Shown here: one piece after another, positions 1 through 53,629 of the stretch
Layout of the letters: every line of letters starts with the position of its first letter
Numbering within the stretch: the first letter of the stretch is position 1
IMG/VR virus record: IMGVR_UViG_3300036851_000411
Location: 18,134 to 82,133 of that record
DNA from: a virus
DNA length: 64,000 bases
Strand: one strand, 5' to 3'
The notes under the pieces: model-generated
Databases searched by the model: none
What the model was told of the DNA's origin: nothing
Seen by the model: the letters and a program-made list of their open reading frames with translations, nothing else
Translations under genes and position numbers: made by a program

Positions 1-792
1 AAGCGATGGCGCGATCGCTCGCAGCGCTGGCGCGCGCCGGGCGACGTGTTCGACCCGCGTCGCTTCGCGGTCGATGGGATCGCCGACGACACCCGGCCGA
101 AGGAATTCGTCGAGCAGCATCACTACGCGGCGAGTTATCCGGCGGCCGTCTTTCGCGTCGGGCTGTTCGGTCCGCGGGCCGCGCTCGTCGGCGTCGCGGT
201 ATTCAGCGTCCCGCCACAGCAGGCCGCGCTCCCGAAGTGGACCGGCGTCACGTTAGGCGAGGGCGCGGCGGAGCTCGGCCGCTTCGTGCTCCTCGACGAC
301 GTGGGCTACAACGCCGAGACGTGGTTCCTCTCGCGCGCGTTTCGCCTCCTCCGAACGCACAAGCACTATCGACGCATCCTCTCCTACGCGGATCCGCTCG
401 AGCGCCCGGAGATCGCGAAGCCCGCGCACTGGGGAACGGTCTATCAGGCGGCGAACGCAACGTTTGCGGGTCGATCGGAAGCCCGGTGGCAACACATTGC
501 GCCGACAGGCGAGGTCGTCAGCCGGCGGATGCTCAACAAGATCCGCCAGGGCCATCAGGGATGGCAGTATGGAGTCGACTGGCTGAGAGAGCGCGGCGCG
601 CCAGTGCAGGGAACTGCCGAGCCGTCCCGTGGATGGGTCGATCGGGTGCTCTCAGCGTGGCGACGTGTGTACCACCCCGGCAACCTCGCCTATGTGTTCG
701 GGCTCGACGATCGCGCGAAGTCGGCGCTCCGGACGCTCCACGCTGGTGGGTTACCCTACGTGCGCCCTGCGGCGGCTTGTGTGCAATGGTAG
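1..792 (+). CDS. Mom-family adenine-modification (GNAT-like) protein, 5' truncated
   Basis: Motifs FVEQHHY, ELGRFVLLD, ETWFLSR, SYADP, HWGTVYQAANATFAG; frame is open back to base 1. Confidence 0.75.
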   Translation, partial: KRWRDRSQRWRAPGDVFDPRRFAVDGIADDTRPKEFVEQHHYAASYPAAVFRVGLFGPRAALVGVAVFSVPPQQAALPKWTGVTLGEGAAELGRFVLLDDVGYNAETWFLSRAFRLLRTHKHYRRILSYADPLERPEIAKPAHWGTVYQAANATFAGRSEARWQHIAPTGEVVSRRMLNKIRQGHQGWQYGVDWLRERGAPVQGTAEPSRGWVDRVLSAWRRVYHPGNLAYVFGLDDRAKSALRTLHAGGLPYVRPAAACVQW

Positions 793-2408: not shown

Positions 2409-2653
2409 CGATGGCCCCGCGGCTCTCGCCCGAGATGCACGCTCGGATCATCGCCGAATTGCGACGGCGGCTCCAGAGCGCGATCGAGCGAGCGGCGCGC
2501 GAGGGGTGCGACACGCCGGTGATCCACATGAGCGCCGAGCGGCGATGTGGCGCGGTGGGCGTCGACGAGGAAGGGCATTGCCTGCGGTGCGGCCTCGTGC
2601 CTCCCGAAGAGGACACCGAGACCGAGTGCCCACCGGGCTTCTTCGACAGTTAG
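2405..2653 (+). CDS. small Cys-rich hypothetical protein
   Basis: ATGA-coupled; CxxC. Confidence 0.5.
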   Translation: MTMAPRLSPEMHARIIAELRRRLQSAIERAAREGCDTPVIHMSAERRCGAVGVDEEGHCLRCGLVPPEEDTETECPPGFFDS

Positions 2654-2823
2654 AAGGCTGTGCGGCAACGCTCAGACGGCTGTGCGGCGACGGAACGGCA
2701 GCGCCACGAGTCAGAGCCGGCATGTACGGGCAATGCCAAGCCGTACAAGGCGTTACGCGAGGTGTGGTGTCACACGCTCGTACACTGTTGCAACACGTGT
2801 TGCACACAATGTTGCACAAAGTG

Positions 2824-2872
2824 ATGTGAAACATATTTCACATGCATGCAACACCGTGTATAATCAACGGTG
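2824..2872 (+). promoter_or_regulatory. Palindrome ATGTGAAA-CATA-TTTCACAT plus TATAAT inside the inverted repeat CACCGT..ACGGTG; putative plus-strand promoter
   Basis: TTCACA(2837)-16 bp-TATAAT(2859). Confidence 0.5.
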
Positions 2873-2905
2873 GGTGGCGGCCGAATCATTCAGTCGTCAC
2901 TCGGA

Positions 2906-3000
2906 AGGAGCGTGGGGGATTCGAACCCTCGGCCCGGTGCGCTAACACCGGACGCCTCATTGATAGTGAGGTGCTTTCAGCCAGACTCAGCCAACGCTCC
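2906..3000 (-). tRNA. tRNA with Ser-type body and anticodon ATC (reads Asp GAU)
   Basis: Acceptor GGAGCGT/ACGCTCC; D arm GCT..AGC; anticodon stem CCTCA/TGAGG with loop CTATCAA; long variable arm; T loop TTCGAAT; no encoded CCA. Confidence 0.85.
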
Positions 3001-3110
3001 GCCTTCAGGAACTCGGGCCGGTCGAGGGATCACTCCTTCGGCCGGTTCGTGCATCTACCACCGTCGCTCACGAACATTTGAAGGGCTGGGCGACAGGTGG
3101 CGGCACAAGC

Positions 3111-3139
3111 ATGCTAATACATAGTGTGGATCTTCGCAA
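3111..3139 (-). promoter_or_regulatory. Putative sigma70 promoter for the tRNA
   Basis: TTGCGA-17 bp-TAGCAT on the minus strand, about 110 bp upstream of the tRNA. Confidence 0.5.
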
Positions 3140-3359
3140 AGCGTACAAATGAACGGGTGACAAACCTAACCGTCATGAATGCAACGTGTTACAACCCATT
3201 CACCGGCCGGCGCTAGAAGTCGTTGTCACGCGTTGGGTTGTTTCATCTCGCCACCCCAGTATAGGTGCCGCCGCAAGCGCGCGGTATTGACGCTAGCGTC
3301 AGATAGATAGACTACTGGTGCGACGACGAGCCGCTTCTCTGAAGAAGTGGGCTTAGGCG

Positions 3360-3368
3360 TTATCCACA
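3360..3368 (+). promoter_or_regulatory. DnaA box
   Basis: Perfect TTATCCACA. Confidence 0.6.
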
Positions 3369-3369
3369 T

Positions 3370-3385
3370 TGTTTCACGTGAAACG
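3370..3385. promoter_or_regulatory. parS site
   Basis: TGTTTCACGTGAAACG, 15/16 match to consensus TGTTTCACGTGAAACA. Confidence 0.75.
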
Positions 3386-3427
3386 TTCATAACTCCACGC
3401 TGGAGACCCGGCGGATCTATTGCGGAT

Positions 3428-3444
3428 TATGCTTTAATCACATA
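3428..3444. promoter_or_regulatory. 17-bp palindromic operator, copy 1
   Basis: TATGCTTTAATCACATA within TTGCGG-17-TAATCT. Confidence 0.65.
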
Positions 3445-3588
3445 ATCTGAGCGCGCACCTGGCGACCGCCACGGTGCGCGCGCTGCGTTCGGGCACCTCG
3501 CCGAGGCAGTGCGCTCCGGACACGACGCCCCCGGCTCCCACGAGTGCGGGGGCGTCGATGGCCTCTACTCGGTCTGGTGGAGCGGCGC

Positions 3589-4275
3589 GTGCCACGGCGA
3601 CATCCTGCACCTCGTCCTATCCGACGAAGCCAGCGAGCGAAGCGCACGGCGCTCGATGCGATACGACGCAGGCCTGCCGTTCCGCTGGAGCTCTGCGAGG
3701 CGGGTGGGAGTGAGTTTGCCCCGGCGCTCGATGTGGCCACGTGGCTCCGCGACACGTTCGTCACCGAAGGCTCGCCGCTCTACAACGAGGACCACAAGCA
3801 CCTCGCCTTCGCGGCGATCGGCGTGCTGTGGACCAACGTTGCGAACTCAGGGCAGCAGCGCACGGTGCTCGCGACCGCGGAGATGCCGACGCCCAAGGGT
3901 GCGCGGTGGACGATCGCGCGCGCCAAGTATCAGCTGGCGCAATGGTTCGGCGACGTGCCGGACTTCGTCATCACGCTGTCGGCGCCGCTCCTCTCGGACG
4001 TGGATGACGCAACGTTCTGTGCGGTCCTCGAGCACGAGCTCTATCACTGCAGCCAGGCGCGGAATGAGTTCGGCGCGCCGAAGTGGCATCTCGATGGCTC
4101 GCCGGTCTTCGGGATCCGTGGTCACGATGTCGAGGAGTTCGTGTCGATCGTCGCGCGCTACGGTGCTGGAGCGACGCGGGTCGGTGCCCTCGTCCAGGCC
4201 GCCCAGCAACGACCGCTCGTCCAGGCGGCATCGATCGTTGGTGCCTGCGGGACGTGCATCGCGAGGGCCGCATGA
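3589..4275 (+). CDS. Putative phage metallopeptidase
   Basis: HELYH zinc motif, HDVEEF, PDFVITL; GGAG before GTG. Confidence 0.85.
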   Translation: MPRRHPAPRPIRRSQRAKRTALDAIRRRPAVPLELCEAGGSEFAPALDVATWLRDTFVTEGSPLYNEDHKHLAFAAIGVLWTNVANSGQQRTVLATAEMPTPKGARWTIARAKYQLAQWFGDVPDFVITLSAPLLSDVDDATFCAVLEHELYHCSQARNEFGAPKWHLDGSPVFGIRGHDVEEFVSIVARYGAGATRVGALVQAAQQRPLVQAASIVGACGTCIARAA

Positions 4276-4409
4276 GGCGTCGGTCACCCGAGGAGTCGCT
4301 CGACCGGGCCTTGAAGTGGTTGATCGCCGCGTTGGTGGTCAACGCTGTCGCAGCGGTCGTTAAAGCGGTGATCGCGGTGGGCGTCCTGTTCGGCTGGTGG
4401 GGCCGATGA
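4272..4409 (+). CDS. small membrane protein
   Basis: Hydrophobic stretch, ATGA overlap. Confidence 0.45.
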   Translation: MRRRSPEESLDRALKWLIAALVVNAVAAVVKAVIAVGVLFGWWGR

Positions 4410-4476
4410 GGCCCTGCCGTGCTGGCATCTCCACGCTGCCGCTGCGGCGTGACCTGGGCGCGACGGGCCGCGGCTG

Positions 4477-5034
4477 ATGGCGACACTCGTGGACGAAGTC
4501 AAAGCCTTCATCGTGCAGCGACTTGCGTGTTGGGATAGCCCGAAGCAGGTCGCCGCGGCCGTCACCGAAGAATTCCGCATCAAGATGGACCGGCGTCAGG
4601 TCGAGAAGTACGACGCCACTCGGGCGGGGAAGAAGCCGGCGAAGAAGTGGGTCGCACTGTTCACGGCGACTCGCAACCGATTCGAGGACACGATCGACGA
4701 GATCCCCGCGGCGAAGAAGGCGGTCCGCGTTCGCCGGCTCGATCGCATGGCGCTCAAGGCGGAAGAGTCGGGGAACTTCCCGCTCGCGAAGGAGCTCCTC
4801 GAGACGGTCGCGAAGGAGGTTGGCGGGGCGTTCACCAACCGGCGCGAGCTGACGGGCGCTGGTGGCGGACCAATTCAGGCGAAGGTCGATGGCGTGTTGT
4901 CGGCCGAGGAGATGGCGGCGCGGCTTCGCACGCTGCTCGATCGCACGACCGCGGTGGTGCACTCGGCGCCGGCCGTGGTCGCGCCACCCATCGCCCAACC
5001 TCCATCGATTCCTCCAGCGGCGGTGTCGCCATGA
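4477..5034 (+). CDS. DUF2280-family protein (probable terminase small subunit)
   Basis: VKAFIVQRLACWDSP..VAAAVTEEF..QVEKYD; AKEVGGAFTN; ELTGAGGGPIQ. Confidence 0.8.
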   Translation: MATLVDEVKAFIVQRLACWDSPKQVAAAVTEEFRIKMDRRQVEKYDATRAGKKPAKKWVALFTATRNRFEDTIDEIPAAKKAVRVRRLDRMALKAEESGNFPLAKELLETVAKEVGGAFTNRRELTGAGGGPIQAKVDGVLSAEEMAARLRTLLDRTTAVVHSAPAVVAPPIAQPPSIPPAAVSP

Positions 5035-7303: not shown

Positions 7304-7798
7304 ATGAGCGAGACGAACGCGGCAGCGGTCAATCTGCCAAAGTGGATCCCGACACAGGTAGCCACCGCCTGCGCCGATGGGATGGTGGCCGAACCCTCCA
7401 TCGTGCACGAGTGGTGTCCTGGCCTCGCCGTCACGATGCATGACTTCGGAATCTTTCGCGTCACACACATCGCGTCAGGCATGGCGCTGGGCGGCCGATA
7501 CGAGCGCGTTGGGAGTGCGTGTCGCGAGCTCGCTGAATGGGCGGCGGTGGGACGGGCGATCGGAATGGCGTTCGCGCTGGCCGATGCCGTGGTGGTGCGC
7601 GACACCTTGATGGCCCACCTCGACGATGCGGTCCCGTTCCCCGGAGCGACCACGACCGAGAAGGGTGTCACGCGCCCGTCGACCGTCCGTGAGTGGTACC
7701 AGCTCATCCGGACATCGGACTTGGTCGATGAATTTCCATGGGAGTCTGAGTCGCCTATGGATCGGTGCGACGAGTTGCTCAAGACGCTCGCCCCGTGA
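7304..7798 (+). CDS. hypothetical protein
   Basis: RBS GAGGGG, operonic. Confidence 0.6.
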   Translation: MSETNAAAVNLPKWIPTQVATACADGMVAEPSIVHEWCPGLAVTMHDFGIFRVTHIASGMALGGRYERVGSACRELAEWAAVGRAIGMAFALADAVVVRDTLMAHLDDAVPFPGATTTEKGVTRPSTVREWYQLIRTSDLVDEFPWESESPMDRCDELLKTLAP

Positions 7799-7995
7799 CG
7801 ATCGCCGACAAGCTCGCGACCATACCGCTTCTGAGAGGCGAGGGGAGGCGTAGACGCGTTGACCGCCTTCGCGGCGAGGCCACGCTCGCATCTCTGGATT
7901 ACACCGTGCACGTCATGCGGGAGCGAAAGAAGTGGCTGTTCGCGTGGGCCACCTCACGACGCGCGTTCCCGCGGCTGCACGAGCGCCGCCGATGA
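7795..7995 (+). CDS. hypothetical protein
   Basis: GTGA-coupled. Confidence 0.4.
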   Translation: MTIADKLATIPLLRGEGRRRRVDRLRGEATLASLDYTVHVMRERKKWLFAWATSRRAFPRLHERRR

Positions 7996-8037
7996 AACCG
8001 TGTCCGCAGTGACGCAAAGCTCGCGAGCTCGCGAAGC

Positions 8038-8355
8038 ATGAAAAAGCGGCCACCCGTTAGGCGGCTGATGACCGATGAGGAGCGGCGGATGGCGCTGGCC
8101 ATCGCGCCGCCGCACGTCACGTACGTCCCGGGCATCGGCACGAAGCGCTTCGCGCGCGAGATCGCGCAGGAAGCCGAGCGCGCGGACGCGGAGATCACCG
8201 AGGGGCAGGCGAGCTACCTGCGCGAGGTGGTCGTACGGTTCCGACGCCAGATACCACGCGAGGTCGTCACACTCGCGCTTGACGGCCGTGTCGTGCCCCT
8301 CTATGCCGACCACGGCGCGTCGAACGCCGACGTGCCGCGCGACCGCCGCGCCTAA
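8038..8355 (+). CDS. hypothetical protein
   Basis: ORF just before terL. Confidence 0.6.
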   Translation: MKKRPPVRRLMTDEERRMALAIAPPHVTYVPGIGTKRFAREIAQEAERADAEITEGQASYLREVVVRFRRQIPREVVTLALDGRVVPLYADHGASNADVPRDRRA

Positions 8356-8367
8356 CGGCGCCGCCCC

Positions 8368-9981
8368 ATGCTTACCGCCGCCGAGATCGAAGGGCTCCTC
8401 GAGCGGGTCCGGTCCGGCACCCTGACGCTCGATCAGCAACGCGAGCTCTCGTTCCTCCTCTGTGATGTGCCGCCGGCGCCGCCGGCCATCCCGTTCACGG
8501 ACTTCGTTGCCGAGGCGAAGCCCGACTATCGGTGGTGGGAGTGGAACACCCGACTCGCCGCGCGGCTGCAGGACGTGGCAGATGGGAAGATCCGTCGCCT
8601 CATGGTGTTCTGCCCGCCGCGCTATGGAAAGTCCGAGCTCACATCGAAGCTGTTCCCGGCCTACTACCAGTACCGCTTCCCAATACGGCGCGTCGGGCTC
8701 AGTGCGTACGGCGAGGACCGCGCGCACGAGTATCTGAGCCACGCGCAGGAATACTATCTCCGCGTCGGCGGCAAGCTCCGCTCGTTGCGCGATGCGGGGC
8801 TCCGTCGTGGGTTCGAGGTCGAAGGCCGAGGCGGCATGTGGGCCGCGGGTCTCAATGGCGCGTTGCCTGGCCTCGGCTTCCACCTTGGCATTATCGACGA
8901 TCCGCTGAAGAACATGGCGGAGGCGGCCAGTAAGGTCATCCAGTCGCGGAACATCAAGTGGTACAACACGACGTACTACAGCCGCCGGGAACCGAACGAC
9001 GCGATCATTCTCATCACCACGCGGTGGCACCCGCGGGACCTCGCCGGGCAGATCCTCGAGCAGGAGCGCATCAACAAGGACGACGAGGGCGCGCTCGAAA
9101 ACTGGCACATCGTCATCTACGACGAGACCCGCGACGAGAAGGAGCCCTACGACCTGCCGGACAATTGCTCGCTGGAGCCCGACTGGCGTAAGCACGGGGA
9201 GCTGCTGTGCCCCGAGCGATGGCCGGAGTCGGAGGTCAAGAAGAACCGCGCCAAGGGGACGTACAGCTATAGCACGGTCTACCAGCAGCGCCCGAAGACT
9301 TCGGAGGGCACGCGGTTCAAGGCTGAGTGGTTCCCCACGGTCGACGCCATGCCGGTGGATGTCACGGCGCGCGTGAGGTATTGGGATCTGGCGGGCACCG
9401 ACGAGCCGAGCGACGAAGACTCGGATCCCGACTGGACGGTCGGCTTCCGCGTGTCACGCGGGCGGCAGGACCAGATCATCTATTTCGAGAAGATGAAGCG
9501 GTTCCGGAAGAAACCCGGCGGCCGCAATGCCACCATGCGTGAGACAGCGGAGGCCGACGCGCGGGAATTCGGATCGGAGGAGCAACCCAATCGGCACGCG
9601 GTCGTGCAGTGGTGGGAAGGCGAGTCGGGGGTCGATGGCGGTGATCGCAATAAGGCGCTCGGCGCGGCGCTCGCCGGCCACATCTGCAAATTCGATCGAC
9701 CCATCGCGAGTAAGGAAATGCGTCACGAGGTCCTCGCGGGGCAGGCGGAGGTCGGGAATGTGCGGCTAGTGGAGCCCAAGCGCGATGCGCATGGCAACCT
9801 GCTCGATGGGGAAGAGGACTGGATTCCAACGTTCCTCGACGAGATGACGAGCGTGCCGTTCGGGGCGCACGACGACATCGCGGACGCGGCGAGCGATGGC
9901 ACGGCCAAAGTGCTCGACGCGCCCGAGCCCATTCTCGCCGAGATCGTGACGGTGGAGCTCAAGAGTCCCTTCGCGCTCTAG
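8368..9981 (+). CDS. terL: Terminase large subunit
   Basis: Walker A PPRYGKS, Walker B IIDDP, TRWH, nuclease motifs WDLA and HDDIADA. Confidence 0.95.
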   Translation: MLTAAEIEGLLERVRSGTLTLDQQRELSFLLCDVPPAPPAIPFTDFVAEAKPDYRWWEWNTRLAARLQDVADGKIRRLMVFCPPRYGKSELTSKLFPAYYQYRFPIRRVGLSAYGEDRAHEYLSHAQEYYLRVGGKLRSLRDAGLRRGFEVEGRGGMWAAGLNGALPGLGFHLGIIDDPLKNMAEAASKVIQSRNIKWYNTTYYSRREPNDAIILITTRWHPRDLAGQILEQERINKDDEGALENWHIVIYDETRDEKEPYDLPDNCSLEPDWRKHGELLCPERWPESEVKKNRAKGTYSYSTVYQQRPKTSEGTRFKAEWFPTVDAMPVDVTARVRYWDLAGTDEPSDEDSDPDWTVGFRVSRGRQDQIIYFEKMKRFRKKPGGRNATMRETAEADAREFGSEEQPNRHAVVQWWEGESGVDGGDRNKALGAALAGHICKFDRPIASKEMRHEVLAGQAEVGNVRLVEPKRDAHGNLLDGEEDWIPTFLDEMTSVPFGAHDDIADAASDGTAKVLDAPEPILAEIVTVELKSPFAL

Positions 9982-11734: not shown

Positions 11735-11925
11735 GCGACGCCGCCGTGCGCTGCCACTACGTGTGGGTGATGGCCACCACAGTCCGCGTGCAGACCGTGT
11801 GTGAGGACGACTCGTTCACGTTCGGCGTAGTCCACCCGGGTCAGGCCTTCCATGGCGTGCCGTACGAGGCGCTGCAGGCCGGGAAGTATGACGCGGCGAT
11901 GCAGTTCGTCCCGTTCGGCACCTAA
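11731..11925 (+). CDS. hypothetical protein
   Basis: GTGA-coupled. Confidence 0.5.
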   Translation: MSDAAVRCHYVWVMATTVRVQTVCEDDSFTFGVVHPGQAFHGVPYEALQAGKYDAAMQFVPFGT

Positions 11926-11929
11926 CGCG

Positions 11930-14542
11930 GTGGCGACGCTCTTCGCGGCGCTCCGGGCCGAGGCGCAGTCGGCAGTCGCCAAGGGCGCGGCGATGTACGT
12001 CGGCCGCCGGCTGCTGAACGAGCGCGCGCTCCGCACCTGGTGGGTGGCGAACAGAAAGGCGGGTGAGCCTGACCTCGATCCGAACCCGCACATCACCGTT
12101 GCCTACTCGCGCACCGCGGTGCATCTGGCGCCCGACGATGACCTGGTCGTCGTGCCGCCGGCCGCCATGATCGGCTTTCGCGTGTTAGGCACGGATCGCG
12201 CGGTCGTCCTGGAGATCGATGGCGCGCTCGCCCTGCGCGTCATGCACAGCGGCGATCCTGCCGGTCACGCTGGCAACGACGGCGAGGCCGGCGTCCTCAA
12301 TGCGCGCTTTGCCCAGTATCGCGAGGCGGGCGCGACGTGGGACCATGGGTCGTATACGCCGCATCTGACGCTGTTCTACCTGCCCGCTGGCTACGACTCG
12401 ACCGACTGGCGCGACGGCCCCGACCAGTGGCCGCCGTTGCCGGACTTCCCGCTGGTGTTCGGCCGGGAGCTGCGCGCGAACGGCGACGACGATGCGTTCG
12501 ACCAGCCGGGCGCAGAGGCGGGCGTCGAGAAGCTGCTGCGCATGCTGTTCGGCGGTGAGCAGATCGCGAAGGCCACGACGGTCGCCGCGCCGATCCTTCG
12601 CGCGACATGGCTGGCGTGGCCTGATGCCGAGTCTCTCGCGGACACGTCGGACGAGTGGCTGTACCACGTCACCAGCGCGGCCAACGCCGACGCGATCCTG
12701 ACTGAGGGCTTCGCGCCCGACGATTGTGAGCGGACCATCACCGGTGGTGTGGACGAGGCGCAGTCGGTCGGGCGCTCGTTCTTCACCGACCGGGGCGGCG
12801 TCGCCTACTGGGCCGAGCGCATCGGGACTGCGTTAGGCGGCGTTCCGTTGGCCGTGGTTGCCATTCCGAAGCGAAGCGTCCCGCACGCCGAGCACGACGC
12901 GTTAGGCACGCAGCAGGCCGGCGGGCACGCCGCGTTTTGCGTTGAGGGTCCGATTCTGCCGCGTGGCGTCGGGCGGTCGACGTGGGGCGAGCTGGTTGAC
13001 CGTGTTGTTGGCAAGCGCGAGACGAAGGTCCCAAGCCCGCCGCTCCGGCGCGGGTTGCAATGGCTCACAGCCGCCGGCCAGCGGCGCGCGCAGTCCGCCG
13101 CCGACCGCTACGCCGCAGATCTCCGCGCCGGGCGCGCCACGGTGTTCGATCGCGTTCTGCGCGACGAGCGACGGGATCGCCAGCTGCAGCGCATGCGGCG
13201 CGAGGACGAGCCGCCGCCGCCGACGCTCATCGACACACTCGCGGCGACGTACCGCCGACGCCTCGAGCGGCATTACCACAACGTCGAGCACCAGTACGCC
13301 GACGTAGTGGAAGAGGCACGCCGGGACCGCGCGGAGTGGGATGGGATGATGGAGTCCTATGTCCGCGACGGTGGCAGTCGCTACCTCGTGACGAAAGAGT
13401 GGGTGACCGCCGAGGATGAGCGGGTGCGTCACGCCCACGCCGCGCTCCACGGCCGCACCATTCCGTACGACGCGCTCTTTCAGGGTCAGCACGGACCGGT
13501 CTGGGGGACGCCCGACGGACTCGGATGTCGGTGCCGACTTCGCGTTGCGTTCCCGACAATCGACGGCGACGCGCTCGAGGAGTCAGCCGAGAAGTCGTTG
13601 ACACGCTCCGTCGGTGCCTGGCTCGTGGCCAAATTCCGCCCCGCGCAACACCGCGTGCCGGGCGGTCTGCCGCGTGGTGGTCGGTGGGCAGGCTCGGCGT
13701 CGGCGCGAGCGCACCAGACGCTCGCCGTGTTGCCGTCGGCGGACGATGCGGGGCATTACGTGGCGGTGCCATTCCCGCTGCATCAGCGGTTCGAGCATGA
13801 GCGGGCGTATGGACGTGCGATTTCGATGCGTGCCCGCCCGACGGTCGAGTCGGTGCCGCTGTCGGAGCTCCACGCCACGCAAGCACTCGTGCACCGCGCT
13901 GGCGTCGCACGGTGGATCGACGGCAGGGACGAGGCCGATGCGCAACCCGCGCGCCTGATGCGTGATCCGAGCGGACGCGTGCTCATCCAGCAGGGCCATC
14001 ATGAGGCGACCGCAGCGCGGCTCCGAGGGGACACGCACCTCGACGCCGAGGTCTACGATCTCGCGTCCGAGGCGCTCTGGAAGGAATGGGCACCGACCGA
14101 CGTACCTGAGCACATCCAGAAAGCGCTCGACGCCAGACTCGGGATTTCGGATATCGAAAAGTCGGAAGACGAGCAACGGCTCGTTACCGGATGGGCGCTC
14201 GTCTGCACGGAGCCCGACGGCACGCCGCTGGTCGATCGACAGAATGACATCGTCGATATCCGCGAGCTCGAGCAGGCCGCGCACCGTTTCATGGTGGAGT
14301 ATGCCGACGGTGGGATTGTGCATCTGCGCGACGCGGACGGCGAGCCCATTGTCGCTGGCCGGATCGTCGAGTCCATGGTGGTGACGCCCGAGCTCAAGGC
14401 GGCGTTAGGCCTGCCGGGGGACACGCCACTCGGCTGGCTCGTGACCTTCCATGTCACGAGTGACGAGGTGTGGGCGCGCGTGAAAGCGGGCGAGCTCCGC
14501 ATGTTTTCGATCGGCGGGAAGGCGGACCGCGTACCGGTTTGA
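11930..14542 (+). CDS. Head polyprotein: Acb1-like 2H phosphoesterase + ART-like + MuF + ParB-like + XkdF-like prohead protease
   Basis: PHITV/PHLTL; LYHVT..ILTEG..SFFT; KEWVT..RVRHAH..GCRC; QGHHE; DRQNDIV..H..IVES..FSIGG. Confidence 0.8.
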   Translation: MATLFAALRAEAQSAVAKGAAMYVGRRLLNERALRTWWVANRKAGEPDLDPNPHITVAYSRTAVHLAPDDDLVVVPPAAMIGFRVLGTDRAVVLEIDGALALRVMHSGDPAGHAGNDGEAGVLNARFAQYREAGATWDHGSYTPHLTLFYLPAGYDSTDWRDGPDQWPPLPDFPLVFGRELRANGDDDAFDQPGAEAGVEKLLRMLFGGEQIAKATTVAAPILRATWLAWPDAESLADTSDEWLYHVTSAANADAILTEGFAPDDCERTITGGVDEAQSVGRSFFTDRGGVAYWAERIGTALGGVPLAVVAIPKRSVPHAEHDALGTQQAGGHAAFCVEGPILPRGVGRSTWGELVDRVVGKRETKVPSPPLRRGLQWLTAAGQRRAQSAADRYAADLRAGRATVFDRVLRDERRDRQLQRMRREDEPPPPTLIDTLAATYRRRLERHYHNVEHQYADVVEEARRDRAEWDGMMESYVRDGGSRYLVTKEWVTAEDERVRHAHAALHGRTIPYDALFQGQHGPVWGTPDGLGCRCRLRVAFPTIDGDALEESAEKSLTRSVGAWLVAKFRPAQHRVPGGLPRGGRWAGSASARAHQTLAVLPSADDAGHYVAVPFPLHQRFEHERAYGRAISMRARPTVESVPLSELHATQALVHRAGVARWIDGRDEADAQPARLMRDPSGRVLIQQGHHEATAARLRGDTHLDAEVYDLASEALWKEWAPTDVPEHIQKALDARLGISDIEKSEDEQRLVTGWALVCTEPDGTPLVDRQNDIVDIRELEQAAHRFMVEYADGGIVHLRDADGEPIVAGRIVESMVVTPELKAALGLPGDTPLGWLVTFHVTSDEVWARVKAGELRMFSIGGKADRVPV

Positions 14543-14596
14543 GCATAGCTCGAGCGGGGTAGATTCGTCCGGGTTCCGTGGCACGACGCTTGACTC

Positions 14597-14613
14597 TATG
14601 TGATAATCGCATA
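14597..14613. promoter_or_regulatory. 17-bp palindromic operator, copy 3, within a promoter
   Basis: TATGTGATAATCGCATA within TTGACT-16-TAAGTT. Confidence 0.8.
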
Positions 14614-14683
14614 AGTTGCGCGACGTGAAGACACCAGCCGCCCTCGCCGAGCGCCCCATGGGCCTGTCGTAAGGCTCGATGCG

Positions 14684-15658
14684 ATGCCGAGCGACGCCTC
14701 GACTCCGACGTTCCTCCGGCGGCTCCGCCTCCGTGAGGTGTCGCTGGTCCCGCGCGGCGCGAACCAGCGGGCGGACGTGCTCATCGTCAAATCCGACGCC
14801 GACCCCGGTCCCGCCTCCGCGGAGCGCTCCATGAGAAACCCGATCGTGAAGTTCCTCGGTGGCCTCAAGCACGCGGTCCTCGCCATGGCCACGACCGACG
14901 CCCAGAGGGCCGCGGTCGCGAAGGGTTTTGGCGACGCCGAGGCCGCGCTCGCCGAACCGGTCACCGATGGTGGCGCCGACAACGGGGATGGGAATGGTGC
15001 GGCTGCGGTCGACGTAGCCGCGATCGCCGATGCCGTGGCCGAGAAGATGGCGGCGCGCTGCGCGAAGGCGGGCTGTGGTGGGATGATCGAGAAGGGCAAG
15101 TGCGCCAAGTGCGGCGCCATGACCAAGGCCGACAACTCGGGAGATGCCGCGATGGATCAGGAAGCGATCAACAAGGCGATCGGCGACGCGGTCGGCGCGG
15201 TCCGGACCGAGTTCACCACGGCGATCACGAAAGCGCAGGCCGACATCACGAAGGCGAACGAGCGCGCTGACGCCGCCGAGGCCAAGGTCGCCACGCTCGA
15301 GAAGGCGCAGAGCGAGCAGACGAACATCGCGAAGGCGCAGGAGCTGCTCGGCGAGCTGCCGGGCGATGCCAAGCCGATCGCGAGCCTCCTCGCGAAGGCC
15401 AGCCCGGAAGAGCGCGCCGAGTTCGAGAAGATCGCGAAGGCCGGGAACGCCGCGACGCAGAGCGCCCGCCTGTTCGTGCCCGCCGGCCGCGATGTCGCGA
15501 TGAGCGGCAGTGCGCTTGCCGAGATCGAGTCGAAGGCCGCCCAGGTGGCCAAGGACCAGAAGATCACGAAGGAGCAGGCGTTCGACGTGGTCGTCAAGGC
15601 GGATCCGTCGCTCTACACGCGCTACCGCGCGGAGAACGAGATCCGTCCGCAGAGCTGA
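14684..15658 (+). CDS. Scaffold protein with N-terminal protease segment
   Basis: LREVSLVPRGAN, then Ala/Lys-rich coiled coil; precedes capsid genes. Confidence 0.75.
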   Translation: MPSDASTPTFLRRLRLREVSLVPRGANQRADVLIVKSDADPGPASAERSMRNPIVKFLGGLKHAVLAMATTDAQRAAVAKGFGDAEAALAEPVTDGGADNGDGNGAAAVDVAAIADAVAEKMAARCAKAGCGGMIEKGKCAKCGAMTKADNSGDAAMDQEAINKAIGDAVGAVRTEFTTAITKAQADITKANERADAAEAKVATLEKAQSEQTNIAKAQELLGELPGDAKPIASLLAKASPEERAEFEKIAKAGNAATQSARLFVPAGRDVAMSGSALAEIESKAAQVAKDQKITKEQAFDVVVKADPSLYTRYRAENEIRPQS

Positions 15659-15734: not shown

Positions 15735-16172
15735 ATGGCAACCGAAGGCGGCAACACCCGATCGACGCTCGCAGGCGTGGCCGGCGAGGACCTCAGCGCC
15801 AAGGCCGGCTACATCGCGAAGATGAATTCGAGCGGTGTCTGGGTGCTCGCCAGCACCGGTGAGATGGGCTTTCCGATCATCGTCGGCGCGGCCAGCGGTG
15901 GCGCCATCACGCTCGCGACCCCGGGCTATGTCGCCTGCGTGGTGGCCGGCGCGGCGATCGCCACGCCGTTCACGACGCTCAAGGCCGACTCGGCGGGCAA
16001 GGTGCAGGCCGCCGTCAAGGGCCGCACCGATACGTCCGATGCGGGCGCCGCGGTGGATCCGCTTCTCGGCTCCAACGTGCTCGGTTTCAATCTCACGGCC
16101 GCCGCGGGTGACCTCTCGGTCATCGAGATGCTGGTCTGTCCCGTCGGCGCTGTGCCCACGACTGCCGCCTAA
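15735..16172 (+). CDS. Capsid decoration/cement protein
   Basis: Ala/Gly-rich, between scaffold and major capsid gene. Confidence 0.65.
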   Translation: MATEGGNTRSTLAGVAGEDLSAKAGYIAKMNSSGVWVLASTGEMGFPIIVGAASGGAITLATPGYVACVVAGAAIATPFTTLKADSAGKVQAAVKGRTDTSDAGAAVDPLLGSNVLGFNLTAAAGDLSVIEMLVCPVGAVPTTAA

Positions 16173-16234
16173 CGGCGGACGGCGCTCACCCTCCCGACTT
16201 CTTCCATCCCGGTTTCGCTCAGGAGACGCCAGCT

Positions 16235-17233
16235 ATGCCGTTCGCCCCGACCCGCGGTCAGATCCACGTCGACCGCCTGCTGACGAACATCACGATCGGC
16301 TTCTTGCAGGATGCGCGAGCGTTCGTCGCACCGCGCGTCTTCCAGCGCGTTCCTGTCCTCAAGCAGAGCGACCGGTACGCCGTGTATGACCGCGGCTTCT
16401 TCTTCCGGAACCAGATGAAGAAGCGGGCGCCGGGCACCGAAGCGGCACGTGTCCACTACGCGATCGACAACACGCCGACGTACTACGCCGACGTGTGGGC
16501 GCTCGCCAAGGACATCGCTGACCAGGACCGCGCCAACTACGACCAGCCGCTGCTCGGCCCGGACCGTGAGGCGTCGCTGTTCCTCGGTCAGCAGGCGCTC
16601 CTGAACCAGGAGACGGAGTTCGTCACCAACTGGTTCAAGACGGGCGTCTGGACGACCGAATACACCGGCGTCGCGTCGAGCCCGAGTGGCCCGCAGTTCC
16701 TCCAGTGGAACGACGCGGCGTCGAATCCGATCGAGGACATCCGTGCGCGGAAGCGCGCGGCCCGCGAGCTCACCGGGTACGAACTCAACATCCTCACGCT
16801 CGGCCGCGCGGTCTACGACGCGCTGCTCGATCACCCCGACATCATCGACCGCATCAAGTACGGCCAGACGCCTGGCCAGCCGGCGATGGCGAACGAGCAG
16901 ATCCTCGCGCAGCTGTTCGAAGTCGACGAGGTGAATGTCATGAACGGCATTCAGACGACTTCGAACGAAGGCGCGACCAACACGTTCGCCTTCATCGGCG
17001 GCAAGCACGCGATGCTCACGTACCGCCCACCGGCCCCGGGGCTCTTCGTCCCAGCAGCTGGCTACACGTTCGTGTGGACGGGCTACCAGGGCAGCGCGGG
17101 CGAGCTCGGCACGGAAGTCAGCCAGTACCGGATGCCGGAGCTCAAGAGCGACCGCACCGAGATCGAGGCCGCGTACGACCAGAAGCTCGTGTCGGCCGAC
17201 CTCGGCGTGTTCTTCGCCAGCGCCGTCGCGTAA
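16235..17233 (+). CDS. Major capsid protein
   Basis: HVDRLLTNITIGF, FQRVPVLKQSDRY, LLDHPDIIDRIKY; size and position. Confidence 0.9.
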   Translation: MPFAPTRGQIHVDRLLTNITIGFLQDARAFVAPRVFQRVPVLKQSDRYAVYDRGFFFRNQMKKRAPGTEAARVHYAIDNTPTYYADVWALAKDIADQDRANYDQPLLGPDREASLFLGQQALLNQETEFVTNWFKTGVWTTEYTGVASSPSGPQFLQWNDAASNPIEDIRARKRAARELTGYELNILTLGRAVYDALLDHPDIIDRIKYGQTPGQPAMANEQILAQLFEVDEVNVMNGIQTTSNEGATNTFAFIGGKHAMLTYRPPAPGLFVPAAGYTFVWTGYQGSAGELGTEVSQYRMPELKSDRTEIEAAYDQKLVSADLGVFFASAVA

Positions 17234-50863: not shown

Positions 50864-50912
50864 CTCATTTCGAGGATTGACTATAGGCGGCTTCGGCGTT
50901 TGACTTTCATGC

Positions 50913-50954
50913 ATGGGGTTCAGGGGGTCGCGGGTTCAAATCCCGCCGTCCCGA
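50913..50954 (+). repeat. att core: 3' half of tRNA-Pro(GGG)
   Basis: ATGGGGT-TCAGG-GGGTC-GCGGG-TTCAAAT-CCCGC-CGTCCCG-A; the 5' half is absent. Confidence 0.85.
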
Positions 50955-50957
50955 TAT

Positions 50958-52390: not shown

Positions 52391-53629
52391 TCAATGACCT
52401 TGGGCGTCCCGGAGCTTCCGCGGCTCCGTGACGACCGCGAGCAGAGTCGCATCGTCGACGCGCTGGTAGCTCCGCTCGAGCGATCGGAGGTCGCGCCATC
52501 CGCCGACGTGAGCGACATCTGCAGATGGGAGATGCTTCCGCGACGTCGCCCAGGCGCGGCGATACGCGTGGAAGTCGCCGCCGTCGAGCGGGTCGAGTTC
52601 CGCGGCCGTCTCGGCGCGCTCAAGTAAGTCGCGTGCATGGAAACGGCTCCACGGCGATGCAGCGTGACCGCGTCGGGCCTTCGGGGCAGGGAACAGCGGC
52701 CGCTGTCCGATGACAGGGTTCGTTCGCAACACTGTGTCTATCGCCGTGCGCGCCGATTCTGAGAGCGGCACCCACATGTCGACGCCCTCCTTGTCGATCT
52801 CGCCTCGCTTGCGGATACGGCCGAACGGCGCCGATGCTGAGGTCACGCGGTCGACGTCCGAGGCCAGCAACTCGCAAACCGCTGTGACCCGCCAGCCTAA
52901 CGCCTCGATCAACTCGAGGAAGGCGCCGAACAGCTGCTGCGGATCCACCGCGTCGGCGTGCTCCCGCACCGCGAGATATCGATCGTAGCTCGCGACGGGC
53001 CGCTTCGGGTTCTTGCTCTTGGGGATTGGATAGCCGCGCAGCGGGTTGTCGGCGAGCAGACGCTTTCCCTCGGGCGTCCGCACCTTGCATGCCCAGTTCA
53101 TGACGCTGTTGAGAAAGACGACGTCGCCGCCGATGGTCGTGTCGCTCGGCTTCTTCTTGAGTTTCAGCGGTTCGCCGTCGTCGCCTAGCACGACAACACG
53201 GCCGGCGCGCCGATCGCGAATAAACCGATCGAGCGTCGGGGTGTCGATGGCGCTGACGTCGCGAACGTCCCGAAGCACCGCGGTCCAGAGCGCGATCCGC
53301 CGTCGATCCTCGGCCGGCTGGACGCCCTTCTTGTGCGCCGAGACTTCTCGCTCGTAGCGCGCAAAGAGCTCAGTCGGTGAGAGTCGTCCGGTCCGTGCGG
53401 AATCGATCGCGGCCAGCAACTGTCCTGCGAGCTGACGCGCAGCCTTCTCGCCCGCGACGCGGTCGGTGTGCCGGAGCGATCGCTTGGCGTAATTCCCGGC
53501 TGGCGGCATCGACGGATCCCACCATCGGAGATATAGCGGGCCGCCTGGTTCGCGCTCAAGAACATTGACGGTGTGACCGTGACCTCCAACCGTCACTTTC
53601 CAGCAGGCAGGTTTCCGCGCCATGCTCAC
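52391..53629 (-). CDS. int: Tyrosine recombinase/integrase (satellite)
   Basis: GWR, DK, HAYRR, GGW, SYQ; homolog of 46881-48329. Confidence 0.88.
   Translation of the reverse strand: MSMARKPACWKVTVGGHGHTVNVLEREPGGPLYLRWWDPSMPPAGNYAKRSLRHTDRVAGEKAARQLAGQLLAAIDSARTGRLSPTELFARYEREVSAHKKGVQPAEDRRRIALWTAVLRDVRDVSAIDTPTLDRFIRDRRAGRVVVLGDDGEPLKLKKKPSDTTIGGDVVFLNSVMNWACKVRTPEGKRLLADNPLRGYPIPKSKNPKRPVASYDRYLAVREHADAVDPQQLFGAFLELIEALGWRVTAVCELLASDVDRVTSASAPFGRIRKRGEIDKEGVDMWVPLSESARTAIDTVLRTNPVIGQRPLFPAPKARRGHAASPWSRFHARDLLERAETAAELDPLDGGDFHAYRRAWATSRKHLPSADVAHVGGWRDLRSLERSYQRVDDATLLAVVTEPRKLRDAQGH

What the first reader, a model, noticed from the sequence alone, without database searches (positions are those of the whole stretch)
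2906..3000. Serine-bodied tRNA with an Asp (AUC) anticodon: candidate mistranslating or decoy tRNA
Seen: a full cloverleaf with its own putative promoter and anticodon loop CU-AUC-AA. It carries known SerRS identity elements: G1:C72, G2:C71, A3:U70, C11:G24 and a long, about 8-bp, variable arm. Established: SerRS ignores the anticodon; bacterial tRNA-Asp uses GUC, G73 and a short variable loop; A34 tRNA-Asp is essentially absent from bacteria. AUC is three substitutions from the standard Ser anticodons GCU/UGA/CGA/GGA, so it is not a single decay mutation. Inference: it could insert Ser at GAU codons (programmed Asp-to-Ser mistranslation, or proteotoxic defence), or act as a decoy for anticodon nucleases. 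Caveats: U73, one A-C mismatch in the T stem, no encoded CCA.
Basis: partly seen in the sequence, partly recalled or inferred. Interest (0 to 1): 0.85.

Follow-up and report, generated by a model that had tools for sequence, protein, structure and literature searches.

The report
Serine-shaped prophage tRNA, aspartate anticodon
A soil prophage carries an intact tRNA built like a serine tRNA but with an anticodon for the aspartate codon GAU, faced by a strong opposing promoter, so it may be a restrained mistranslating tRNA, though nothing here shows it is made or charged.

Summary
Window 2906-3000 (-) is a full 7/5 cloverleaf tRNA (Rfam 48.6 bits, ARAGORN) with loop CU-AUC-AA, a 22-nt variable arm, U73, one A50·C64 mismatch and no CCA.

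- **Body type:** closest to serine tRNAs. All full-length BLAST neighbours are tRNA-Ser, and home-made isotype models give Ser 35 bits against Leu and Tyr 23.
- **Not an allo-tRNA:** it is 7/5, not 8/4 or 9/3. It is also unrelated to the class I Streptomyces tRNA-Asp-AUC.
- **No recoding:** the phage uses 373 GAT codons, including invariant catalytic Asp positions of its terminase.
- **Rarity:** pattern scans found no such tRNA in IMG/VR or in 185,579 species genomes. It has the same unusual architecture and 13 of 24 comparable pairs changed on both sides.
- **Expression signals:** no promoter was found for the tRNA. A near-consensus promoter on the opposite strand, followed by two hairpins that are stable only on that strand, predicts a ~185-nt antisense RNA.

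Best reading (about 0.4): a seryl-charged GAU missense tRNA held in check by a cis-antisense RNA. Expression and charging are untested. Earlier notes of this scan describe similar serine-bodied phage tRNAs with other wrong anticodons on other DNA.

The parts
2906..3000 (-). 95-nt class II (long variable arm) tRNA gene, 7/5 cloverleaf, U73, no encoded CCA
   Evidence: ARAGORN. Rfam RF00005 48.6 bits, full length. Ser-type by neighbours and isotype models.
2962..2964 (-). Anticodon AUC (reads GAU) in loop C32 U33 A U C A37 A38
   Evidence: Identical in the Logan contig of run X1.
2932..2953 (-). Variable arm: 8-bp stem with a U·G second pair and a 6-nt loop. The whole variable region 44-48 is 24 nt.
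   Evidence: This is longer than in all 105 sampled IMG/VR tRNA-Ser (13-20 nt) and the same as in L102.
2837..2864 (+). Sigma-70-like promoter TTCACA-16-TATAAT (11 of 12) pointing into the 3' end of the tRNA gene
   Evidence: the only promoter-like site in 2600-3560 on either strand; shuffles give a mean of 0.4.
2786..2819 (+). Three direct TGTTGCA(A/C)(A/C)(A/C) repeats at 12-bp spacing, upstream of the plus-strand promoter. Candidate regulator sites.
   Evidence: 6 matches in the window against 0.34 expected. Four of them lie here: three on the plus strand, and one is a palindrome also counted on the minus strand.
2871..2903 (+). Hairpin at the predicted 5' end of the plus-strand transcript, stable on the plus strand only
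   Evidence: -16.9 kcal/mol (z -2.9) on the plus strand against -7.8 (z -0.95) on the minus strand.
3014..3049 (+). 16-bp hairpin just past the tRNA complement, stable on the plus strand only. Candidate terminator without a U tract.
   Evidence: -29.7 kcal/mol (z -4.7, 0 of 200 shuffles) on the plus strand against -18.3 (z -0.8) on the minus strand. Not called by the terminator scan.
2871..3055 (+). Predicted cis-antisense RNA of about 185 nt covering the whole tRNA gene (inference, ends not measured)
   Evidence: the whole stretch folds at -90.4 kcal/mol, z -4.0.

Best explanation
This is an intact serine-type tRNA gene carried by a temperate phage of a high-GC soil bacterium, probably Gemmatimonadota. 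SerRS does not read the anticodon, so the host enzyme would most likely charge the tRNA with serine. With an unmodified A34 it would read only GAU and insert Ser for Asp. GAU still means Asp in the phage's own essential proteins, so the tRNA cannot act freely. A strong convergent promoter makes a structured RNA fully complementary to it. That RNA would block tRNA transcription or pair with the tRNA or its precursor. The pair would then behave like an RNA-only toxin/antidote or a timed switch. Shown: gene integrity, serine-type body, AUC anticodon, no recoding, a second family member, the promoter-like site and the strand-specific hairpins. Inferred: transcription of either strand, serylation, decoding, and the biological purpose.
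For: The cloverleaf is intact with all invariant nucleotides. All BLAST neighbours covering 80% or more of the tRNA that carry an annotation or were re-checked with ARAGORN are tRNA-Ser. The D arm differs at one base from that of Brevundimonas phage Bajun tRNA-Ser(GGA). Isotype HMMs give Ser 35.3, Leu 23.3 and Tyr 23.0 bits, with 60 of 62 hold-outs classed correctly. U73 occurs in real phage tRNA-Ser, whereas sampled Leu and Tyr tRNAs have A73 (97 of 98). Serine identity rests on the variable arm, G1:C72 and G2:C71 and not on the anticodon (PMC9976931). Serine-identity tRNAs with non-serine anticodons insert Ser in E. coli (PMC5389517). Known dedicated mistranslators of high-GC bacteria also carry A34 anticodons (AUU, AGU; PMC10404621). 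L102 shares the AUC anticodon, the 11-nt D loop and the 24-nt variable region, with 13 of 24 comparable pairs changed on both sides and none on one side. The opposing promoter scores 11 of 12 and both plus-strand-only hairpins flank the tRNA complement.
Against: No promoter or terminator was found for the tRNA strand. The Ser-model score is at the low end of real phage tRNA-Ser (median 60.6, minimum 30.8). G73, an in vivo determinant in E. coli, is replaced by U73. The A50·C64 mismatch lies in the T stem. The phage has 373 GAT codons (31% of Asp codons), including invariant D178 and D340 of its terminase, so activity would be self-harming. Only one relative was found, and that search required AUC, so conservation of the anticodon is not shown. 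The plus-strand promoter could serve another purpose.
Confidence: 0.4

Rival explanations
1. It is a neutral passenger or relic. A phage serine tRNA lost its meaning through an anticodon-loop change, possibly an inversion of the anticodon hairpin of a GAU-type class II tRNA. It is silent or harmless, and the plus-strand promoter and hairpins belong to an unrelated small RNA or operon leader.
For: No promoter was found on the tRNA strand. The T stem has a mismatch, the discriminator is U73 and the Ser-model score is low. No relative was found in IMG/VR or in 185,579 species genomes. The nearest of 224 sampled class II tRNAs, L178, has the same anticodon stem and a loop that is the reverse complement of ours at 6 of 7 positions.
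Against: Every invariant tertiary nucleotide is kept and only one pair is broken. C32, U33, A37 and A38 form a canonical loop. L102 keeps the same rare architecture with purely compensatory stem changes, which points to selection on the fold. A 5-bp inverted repeat is a poor substrate for inversion.
Confidence: 0.25
2. It is a non-decoding serine-type tRNA. It could act as a decoy or sponge for defence nucleases that recognise the tRNA-Ser body. It could also be a seryl donor kept off the ribosome for a phage transferase, with the Mom-like gene 2 kb upstream as a candidate.
For: A type I-A retron HNH nuclease depletes all four E. coli tRNA-Ser, so it does not depend on a single serine anticodon (PMC12475279). 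The prophage is rich in counter-defence genes: an Acb1-like domain, NADAR, MT-A70, Dam, Mom and RadC. The T-stem mismatch lies where EF-Tu binds (own knowledge).
Against: A replacement tRNA with a true serine anticodon would serve the phage better. No nuclease, ligase or aminoacyl-transferase partner was found among about 40 proteins scanned. This remains pure inference.
Confidence: 0.15
3. It is a true aspartate tRNA that gives Watson-Crick decoding of the phage's frequent GAU codons, like the Streptomyces tRNA-Asp-AUC.
For: GAT has the highest T-ending share of all codon pairs in the phage (31%). A bacterial tRNA with an AUC anticodon that improves GAU translation exists (PMC9262613). U35, C36 and G10 are present.
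Against: The tRNA has a class II body with a 22-nt variable arm. It has U73, A34 and A38 where bacterial AspRS uses G73, G34 and C38 (own knowledge of Asp identity). It shows no similarity to the 76-nt Streptomyces tRNA.
Confidence: 0.07

Closest known systems
Allo-tRNAs (Mukai et al. 2017, PMC5389517)
   Same: Long variable arm, G73 or U73, serine identity combined with non-serine anticodons (GUC for Asp is among the commonest). Shown to insert Ser at sense codons and to be toxic in E. coli. Found in soil bacteria and phages.
   Different: Allo-tRNAs have 8/4 or 9/3 acceptor/T branches, long D stems with tetraloops and longer anticodon stems. This tRNA is a canonical 7/5 cloverleaf with a normal serine-type D arm. 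Its anticodon is AUC, not GUC.
tRNA-ProX / tRNA-ProA with ProRSx of Streptomyces and Kitasatospora (PMC10404621)
   Same: Natural dual-identity tRNAs of high-GC bacteria whose anticodons start with A34 (AUU, AGU). They mistranslate sense codons and are toxic when expressed.
   Different: They have a proline body with a dedicated synthetase next door. Here the body is serine-type, no synthetase gene was found, and the gene sits on a prophage with an opposing promoter.
Streptomyces tRNA-Asp-AUC (PMC9262613)
   Same: Bacterial tRNA with anticodon AUC and unmodified A34, reading GAU.
   Different: It is a 76-nt class I tRNA with a short variable loop and shows no sequence relation. It is presumed to carry Asp.
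Ordinary phage tRNA-Ser, for example Brevundimonas phage Bajun and Caulobacter phage CcrBL9
   Same: Near-identical D arm, U73 in Bajun, same T loop, long variable arm.
   Different: They carry serine anticodons (CGA, GGA) and shorter variable arms, and they lie in tRNA clusters on the coding strand.

Membership tests
tRNA (Rfam RF00005) | Covariance-model score above the gathering threshold over the full model | tested here: met
   48.6 bits against 29, model positions 1-71. ARAGORN agrees.
Bacterial-type tRNA-Ser (SerRS substrate) | Long variable arm | tested here: met
   8-bp stem plus 6-nt loop; variable region 24 nt.
Bacterial-type tRNA-Ser (SerRS substrate) | G1:C72 and G2:C71 (plus A3:U70, C11:G24, G13·A22, G15/C48) | tested here: met
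   Read from the sequence and the Rfam alignment. Features as listed in PMC9976931.
Bacterial-type tRNA-Ser (SerRS substrate) | Discriminator G73 | tested here: not met
   It is U73. However, 5 of 105 sampled phage tRNA-Ser, and both Bajun tRNA-Ser, also have U73.
Bacterial-type tRNA-Ser (SerRS substrate) | Body scores best with a serine isotype model when the anticodon is masked | tested here: met
   Ser 35.3, Leu 23.3, Tyr 23.0 bits, but at the low end of true Ser (minimum 30.8, median 60.6). tRNAscan-SE was not available.
Bacterial-type tRNA-Ser (SerRS substrate) | Aminoacylation with serine | not testable with these tools
   Needs an in vitro or in vivo charging assay.
Allo-tRNA | 8/4 or 9/3 acceptor/T branch, long D stem with tetraloop | tested here: not met
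   7/5 branch, 3-4-bp D stem with an 11-nt loop.
tRNA-Asp | Class I body with G73, G34 and C38 | tested here: not met
   Class II body with U73, A34 and A38.
Streptomyces tRNA-Asp-AUC family | Sequence homology to the 76-nt SPC6 tRNA | tested here: not met
   The sequences in the supplement are class I and unrelated.
Sense-codon reassignment (GAU = Ser in the phage) | GAT codons fall at conserved Ser, not Asp, positions | tested here: not met
   In a 68-sequence terminase alignment, GAT sits at invariant D178 and D340. The mean share of Asp in homologues at GAT columns is 0.40, and of Ser 0.04.
Cis-antisense RNA pair (type I toxin-antitoxin-like) | Convergent promoter and a discrete, structured antisense transcript | tested here: inconclusive
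   A promoter-like site at 11 of 12 and two plus-strand-only hairpins are present. There are no transcript data.

The most novel reading that the evidence does not exclude
The tRNA(AUC) and its fully overlapping antisense RNA form an RNA-only toxin/antidote module on a prophage. When the antisense promoter is shut, for example by a regulator bound at the three TGTTGCA repeats, the tRNA puts serine at GAU codons across the proteome and stops the cell or a competing phage. This would be programmed mistranslation used as abortive infection or host takeover.
Probability: 0.12. Interest if true: 0.85.

Novelty: new variant of a known kind. Interest (0 to 1): 0.6.

Why it matters
Natural tRNAs whose charging identity and anticodon disagree are the clearest cases of built-in mistranslation, and few have been tested. 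This one combines three things:
- a canonical serine-type cloverleaf, not the odd allo-tRNA shape;
- an A34 anticodon that limits it to one codon;
- a predicted antisense brake on a prophage.

If it is charged with serine, it gives a simple, testable system for asking how a phage or lysogen uses and controls proteome-wide Asp-to-Ser errors. If it is not charged or not made, it shows how an intact-looking tRNA can persist without decoding.

Tried and rejected
- **GAU recoded to Ser in the phage:** rejected.
- **Attachment-site remnant:** rejected. The att repeats belong to tRNA-Pro(GGG), at genome 139-186 and 69043-69090, and no second copy of any 13-mer of the tRNA(AUC) exists in the genome.
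- **Leu or Tyr type:** rejected by the isotype models, U73 and G15/C48.
- **Allo-tRNA, tRNA-Sec, Streptomyces tRNA-Asp-AUC:** rejected.
- **Variable-arm loop as a second anticodon arm:** the loops (UUAGCG, and CGCCAA in L102) show no Asp anticodon.
- the Logan contig is identical, but it probably comes from the same sample.
- **Close relatives of the phage:** none. The best terminase hit in phage records is 33% identical, the best in the protein collection is 41-43%, and the search for related loci found nothing.
- **Exact-pattern scans of IMG/VR** for the anticodon arm, the 5' half, AUC and GUC gave only chance matches.
- **Genome scan:** two chance matches in coding sequence.
- **L102 neighbours:** no family hits. 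A tblastx call returned nothing, and blastn found no similarity to the phage beyond the tRNA.
- **Expression data:** no RNA holder was listed for the stretch.
- **Host:** inferred only from integrase homologues named Gemmatimonadaceae, at 61% and 49% identity.
- **Partner enzymes:** no synthetase, tRNA-modifying enzyme or RNA ligase among about 40 proteins scanned. About half of the 85 predicted genes were not scanned.

Full report
**What is there**

ARAGORN finds one tRNA in the window, at 2906-3000 on the minus strand, anticodon atc. Rfam's tRNA model matches the same 95 nt end to end at 48.6 bits (gathering score 29, E 2.4e-07) with a standard 7-bp acceptor and 5-bp T stem.

The sequence shows:
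- G1:C72, G2:C71, A3:U70, C11:G24, G13·A22, U8, A14, G18G19, G15 with C48, and T loop UUCGAAU;
- anticodon loop CUAUCAA;
- a variable arm with an 8-bp stem and a 6-nt loop;
- U73 followed by UCC, so no CCA is encoded;
- one A50·C64 mismatch.

ViennaRNA recovers the acceptor, anticodon, variable and part of the T arm. A Logan contig of the one run that holds the stretch is identical at depth about 11.6. That run is probably the source sample, so this is not independent support.

**Setting**

The window is bases 18134-82133 of an 82,133-bp, 66.5% GC virus record from a soil metagenome. Almost all genes run on the plus strand. They include:
- a Mom-like protein, a phage metallopeptidase, DUF2280 and a sigma-like protein;
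- a large terminase;
- a head protein with Acb1-like, MuF and protease domains, plus NADAR and MT-A70;
- a large DNA methyltransferase;
- Dam, RadC and Rad52.

A tRNA-Pro(GGG) at genome 110-183 shares about 45 nt, from its anticodon loop to its 3' end, with genome 69043-69090. This is a classic pair of att sites, and the tRNA(AUC) lies between them. A tyrosine integrase sits just outside the right repeat. Its named homologues are from Gemmatimonadaceae (61% and 49% identity), so the host is probably a Gemmatimonadota bacterium. This is an inference.

The tRNA lies in about 1.1 kb without a convincing ORF, and it is on the strand opposite to all its neighbours.

**Which kind of tRNA body**

In phage and plasmid records, every full-length BLAST neighbour that carries an annotation or was re-checked with ARAGORN is a tRNA-Ser. 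The D arm differs at one base from that of Brevundimonas phage Bajun tRNA-Ser(GGA).

I sampled class II tRNAs from IMG/VR with one D-arm/T-loop pattern: 105 distinct Ser, 63 Leu and 36 Tyr. I built nhmmer models with the anticodon masked; 60 of 62 hold-outs were classed correctly. The window's tRNA scores Ser 35.3, Leu 23.3 and Tyr 23.0 bits. True Ser hold-outs range from 30.8 to 75.4 (median 60.6), so this is serine-type but divergent.

Discriminators in the sample were G 96, U 5 and A 4 for Ser, and A in 97 of 98 Leu and Tyr tRNAs. Both Bajun tRNA-Ser have U73. U73 therefore argues against Leu or Tyr identity and does not exclude Ser.

[quoted passage not shown] G1:C72 and G2:C71 are conserved in bacterial tRNA-Ser, and G73 is a moderate in vivo determinant in E. 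coli.

**No recoding**

In 85 predicted genes, GAT is used 373 times against 827 GAC. At 31%, this is the highest T-ending share of any codon pair.

In an alignment of the terminase with 67 homologues, GAT codons sit at invariant Asp178 (Walker B) and Asp340 (nuclease). GAT and GAC columns look alike: the mean Asp share in homologues is 0.40 and 0.46, and the Ser share 0.04 and 0.02. GAU therefore means Asp for this phage, and a very active Ser-inserting tRNA would damage its own proteins.

**Relatives**

The phage has no close kin. The best terminase match is 33% identical in phage records and 41-43% in the protein collection.

Pattern scans for a serine-type D arm plus an AUC loop gave:
- IMG/VR: no true hit;
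- 185,579 species genomes: no true hit, only two chance matches in coding sequence;

The true hit is L102, a 1234-bp JGI contig. Rfam gives it 45.7 bits, and the contig end cuts it in the 3' acceptor strand.

L102 aligns to the window's tRNA without a single gap over 91 nt. It has the loop CUAUCAC, the same 11-nt D loop and the same 24-nt variable region. No tRNA-Ser among the 105 sampled has a variable region that long (range 13-20), and the metagenome pattern did not constrain it. Of 24 comparable pairs that are standard in both tRNAs, 13 differ on both sides, none on one side, and 11 are unchanged. Both are therefore folded tRNAs of one uncommon design. Because the search demanded AUC, the shared anticodon cannot itself be counted as conservation.

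**Background**

Odd anticodons on class II bodies are not rare in viral contigs. It also contained the stop-codon readers CUA (2) and UCA (1). A scan for GUC on this body type found none.

The nearest of 224 sampled tRNAs to ours is L178, a GAU type. It has the same anticodon stem, and its loop is the reverse complement of ours at 6 of 7 positions. This leaves open an origin by hairpin inversion. The loop as it stands (C32, U33, A37, A38) is fully canonical.

**Expression signals**

The sigma-70 scan finds nothing on the tRNA strand. On the plus strand it finds one site, TTCACA-16-TATAAT, matching 11 of 12 positions at 2837-2864. It points into the 3' end of the tRNA gene. Three TGTTGCA repeats at 12-bp spacing lie just upstream.

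Two hairpins flank the tRNA complement and are much more stable on the plus strand:

| Hairpin | Plus strand | Minus strand |
|---|---|---|
| 2871-2903 | -16.9 kcal/mol (z -2.9) | -7.8 kcal/mol (z -0.95) |
| 3014-3049 | -29.7 kcal/mol (z -4.7) | -18.3 kcal/mol (z -0.8) |

The whole 2871-3062 stretch folds at z -4.0. This predicts a discrete antisense RNA of about 185 nt.

Other first-stage notes on this genome proposed the same antisense RNA. I reached the promoter independently and tested the hairpins. Notes on other genomes describe odd tRNAs with antisense partners. Those are leads, not evidence. L102 also has a GC-rich hairpin next to the tRNA's 5' end, but it shows little strand asymmetry.

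**Most likely mechanism**

The tRNA would be charged with serine by the host SerRS and would read GAU through A34. It would be kept low or timed by the convergent antisense transcript.

The nearest experimentally tested parallels are:
- allo-tRNAs, which have serine identity with non-serine anticodons, insert Ser and are toxic in E. coli (PMC5389517);
- the tRNA-ProX family of Streptomyces, whose anticodons also begin with A34 (PMC10404621).

I put this reading at about 0.4. Against it stand the missing promoter, U73, the T-stem mismatch, the low Ser-model score and the self-harm argument.

The rivals are:
- a silent relic (0.25);
- a non-decoding role such as a sponge for nucleases that deplete every E. 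coli tRNA-Ser isoacceptor (PMC12475279) or a seryl donor (0.15);
- a true Asp tRNA like the class I Streptomyces tRNA-Asp-AUC of PMC9262613 (0.07), which the class II body, U73, A34 and A38 make unlikely.

**Comparison and novelty**

It works like an allo-tRNA or a ProX-type mistranslator, but it fails the structural definition of allo-tRNAs because it is 7/5. It has no dedicated synthetase and is unrelated to the Streptomyces tRNA-Asp-AUC. I class it as a new variant of a known kind. This scan has already noted serine-bodied phage tRNAs with CCG, CCA and proline anticodons on other DNA, which lowers the surprise. The AUC anticodon, the canonical cloverleaf and the fully overlapping antisense unit are the new elements.

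**Limits**

- Transcription, processing, CCA addition, charging and decoding are all untested.
- The family size is unknown because the metagenome scan was cut short.
- The host is inferred only from integrase homologues.

Noticed in passing
L018:139-186 and window 50910-50957 (genome 69043-69090); integrase at window 52391-53629 (-): A full tRNA-Pro(GGG) and a ~45-nt copy of its 3' part (anticodon loop to end) bound a ~69-kb element. The only recognisable tyrosine integrase and a replication-initiator gene lie just outside the right repeat. This suggests two elements in tandem at one tRNA-Pro, or an unusual layout.
   Followed up: partly
Loci L145, L167, L180, L185, L205, L211, L240, L241 (GUU); L178, L186, L238, L244 (GAU); L197, L233 (UAU); L202 (CUG): IMG/VR contigs, several from jumbo phages, carry class II (long variable arm) tRNAs with Asn, Ile or Gln anticodons. 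All seven distinct GUU ones have G73, and most score best with the serine model.
   Followed up: partly
L178:1413-1503 (+): A class II tRNA with anticodon GAU has the same anticodon stem as the window's tRNA, and its loop is the reverse complement at 6 of 7 positions. It is the nearest of 224 sampled class II tRNAs. Its first acceptor pairs are poor, and a clean terminator hairpin follows it.
   Followed up: partly
window 2786-2819 (+): Three TGTTGCA(A/C)(A/C)(A/C) direct repeats at 12-bp spacing lie upstream of the plus-strand promoter. The motif is otherwise almost absent from the window (6 matches against 0.34 expected).
   Followed up: partly
window 11852-14542 (+); L018:3448-4089, 4082-4726, 7617-9536, 14374-14913, 16125-16766; window 46-792: The prophage carries a heavy counter-defence and DNA-modification load: an Acb1-like domain fused to MuF and a prohead protease, NADAR, MT-A70, a 639-aa methyltransferase, Dam, RadC and a Mom-like protein.
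   Followed up: partly
window 3360-3385: A DnaA-box-like TTATCCACA next to a palindrome resembling chromosomal parS lies in the same 1.1-kb non-coding stretch as the tRNA. It was seen in the sequence and in another first-stage note, and was not tested.
   Followed up: no
L102:92-165: The second tRNA(AUC) also has a GC-rich hairpin directly upstream of its 5' end, and an AT-rich region with a near DnaA-box beyond it. The contig is too short to show what lies past the tRNA's 3' end.
   Followed up: partly
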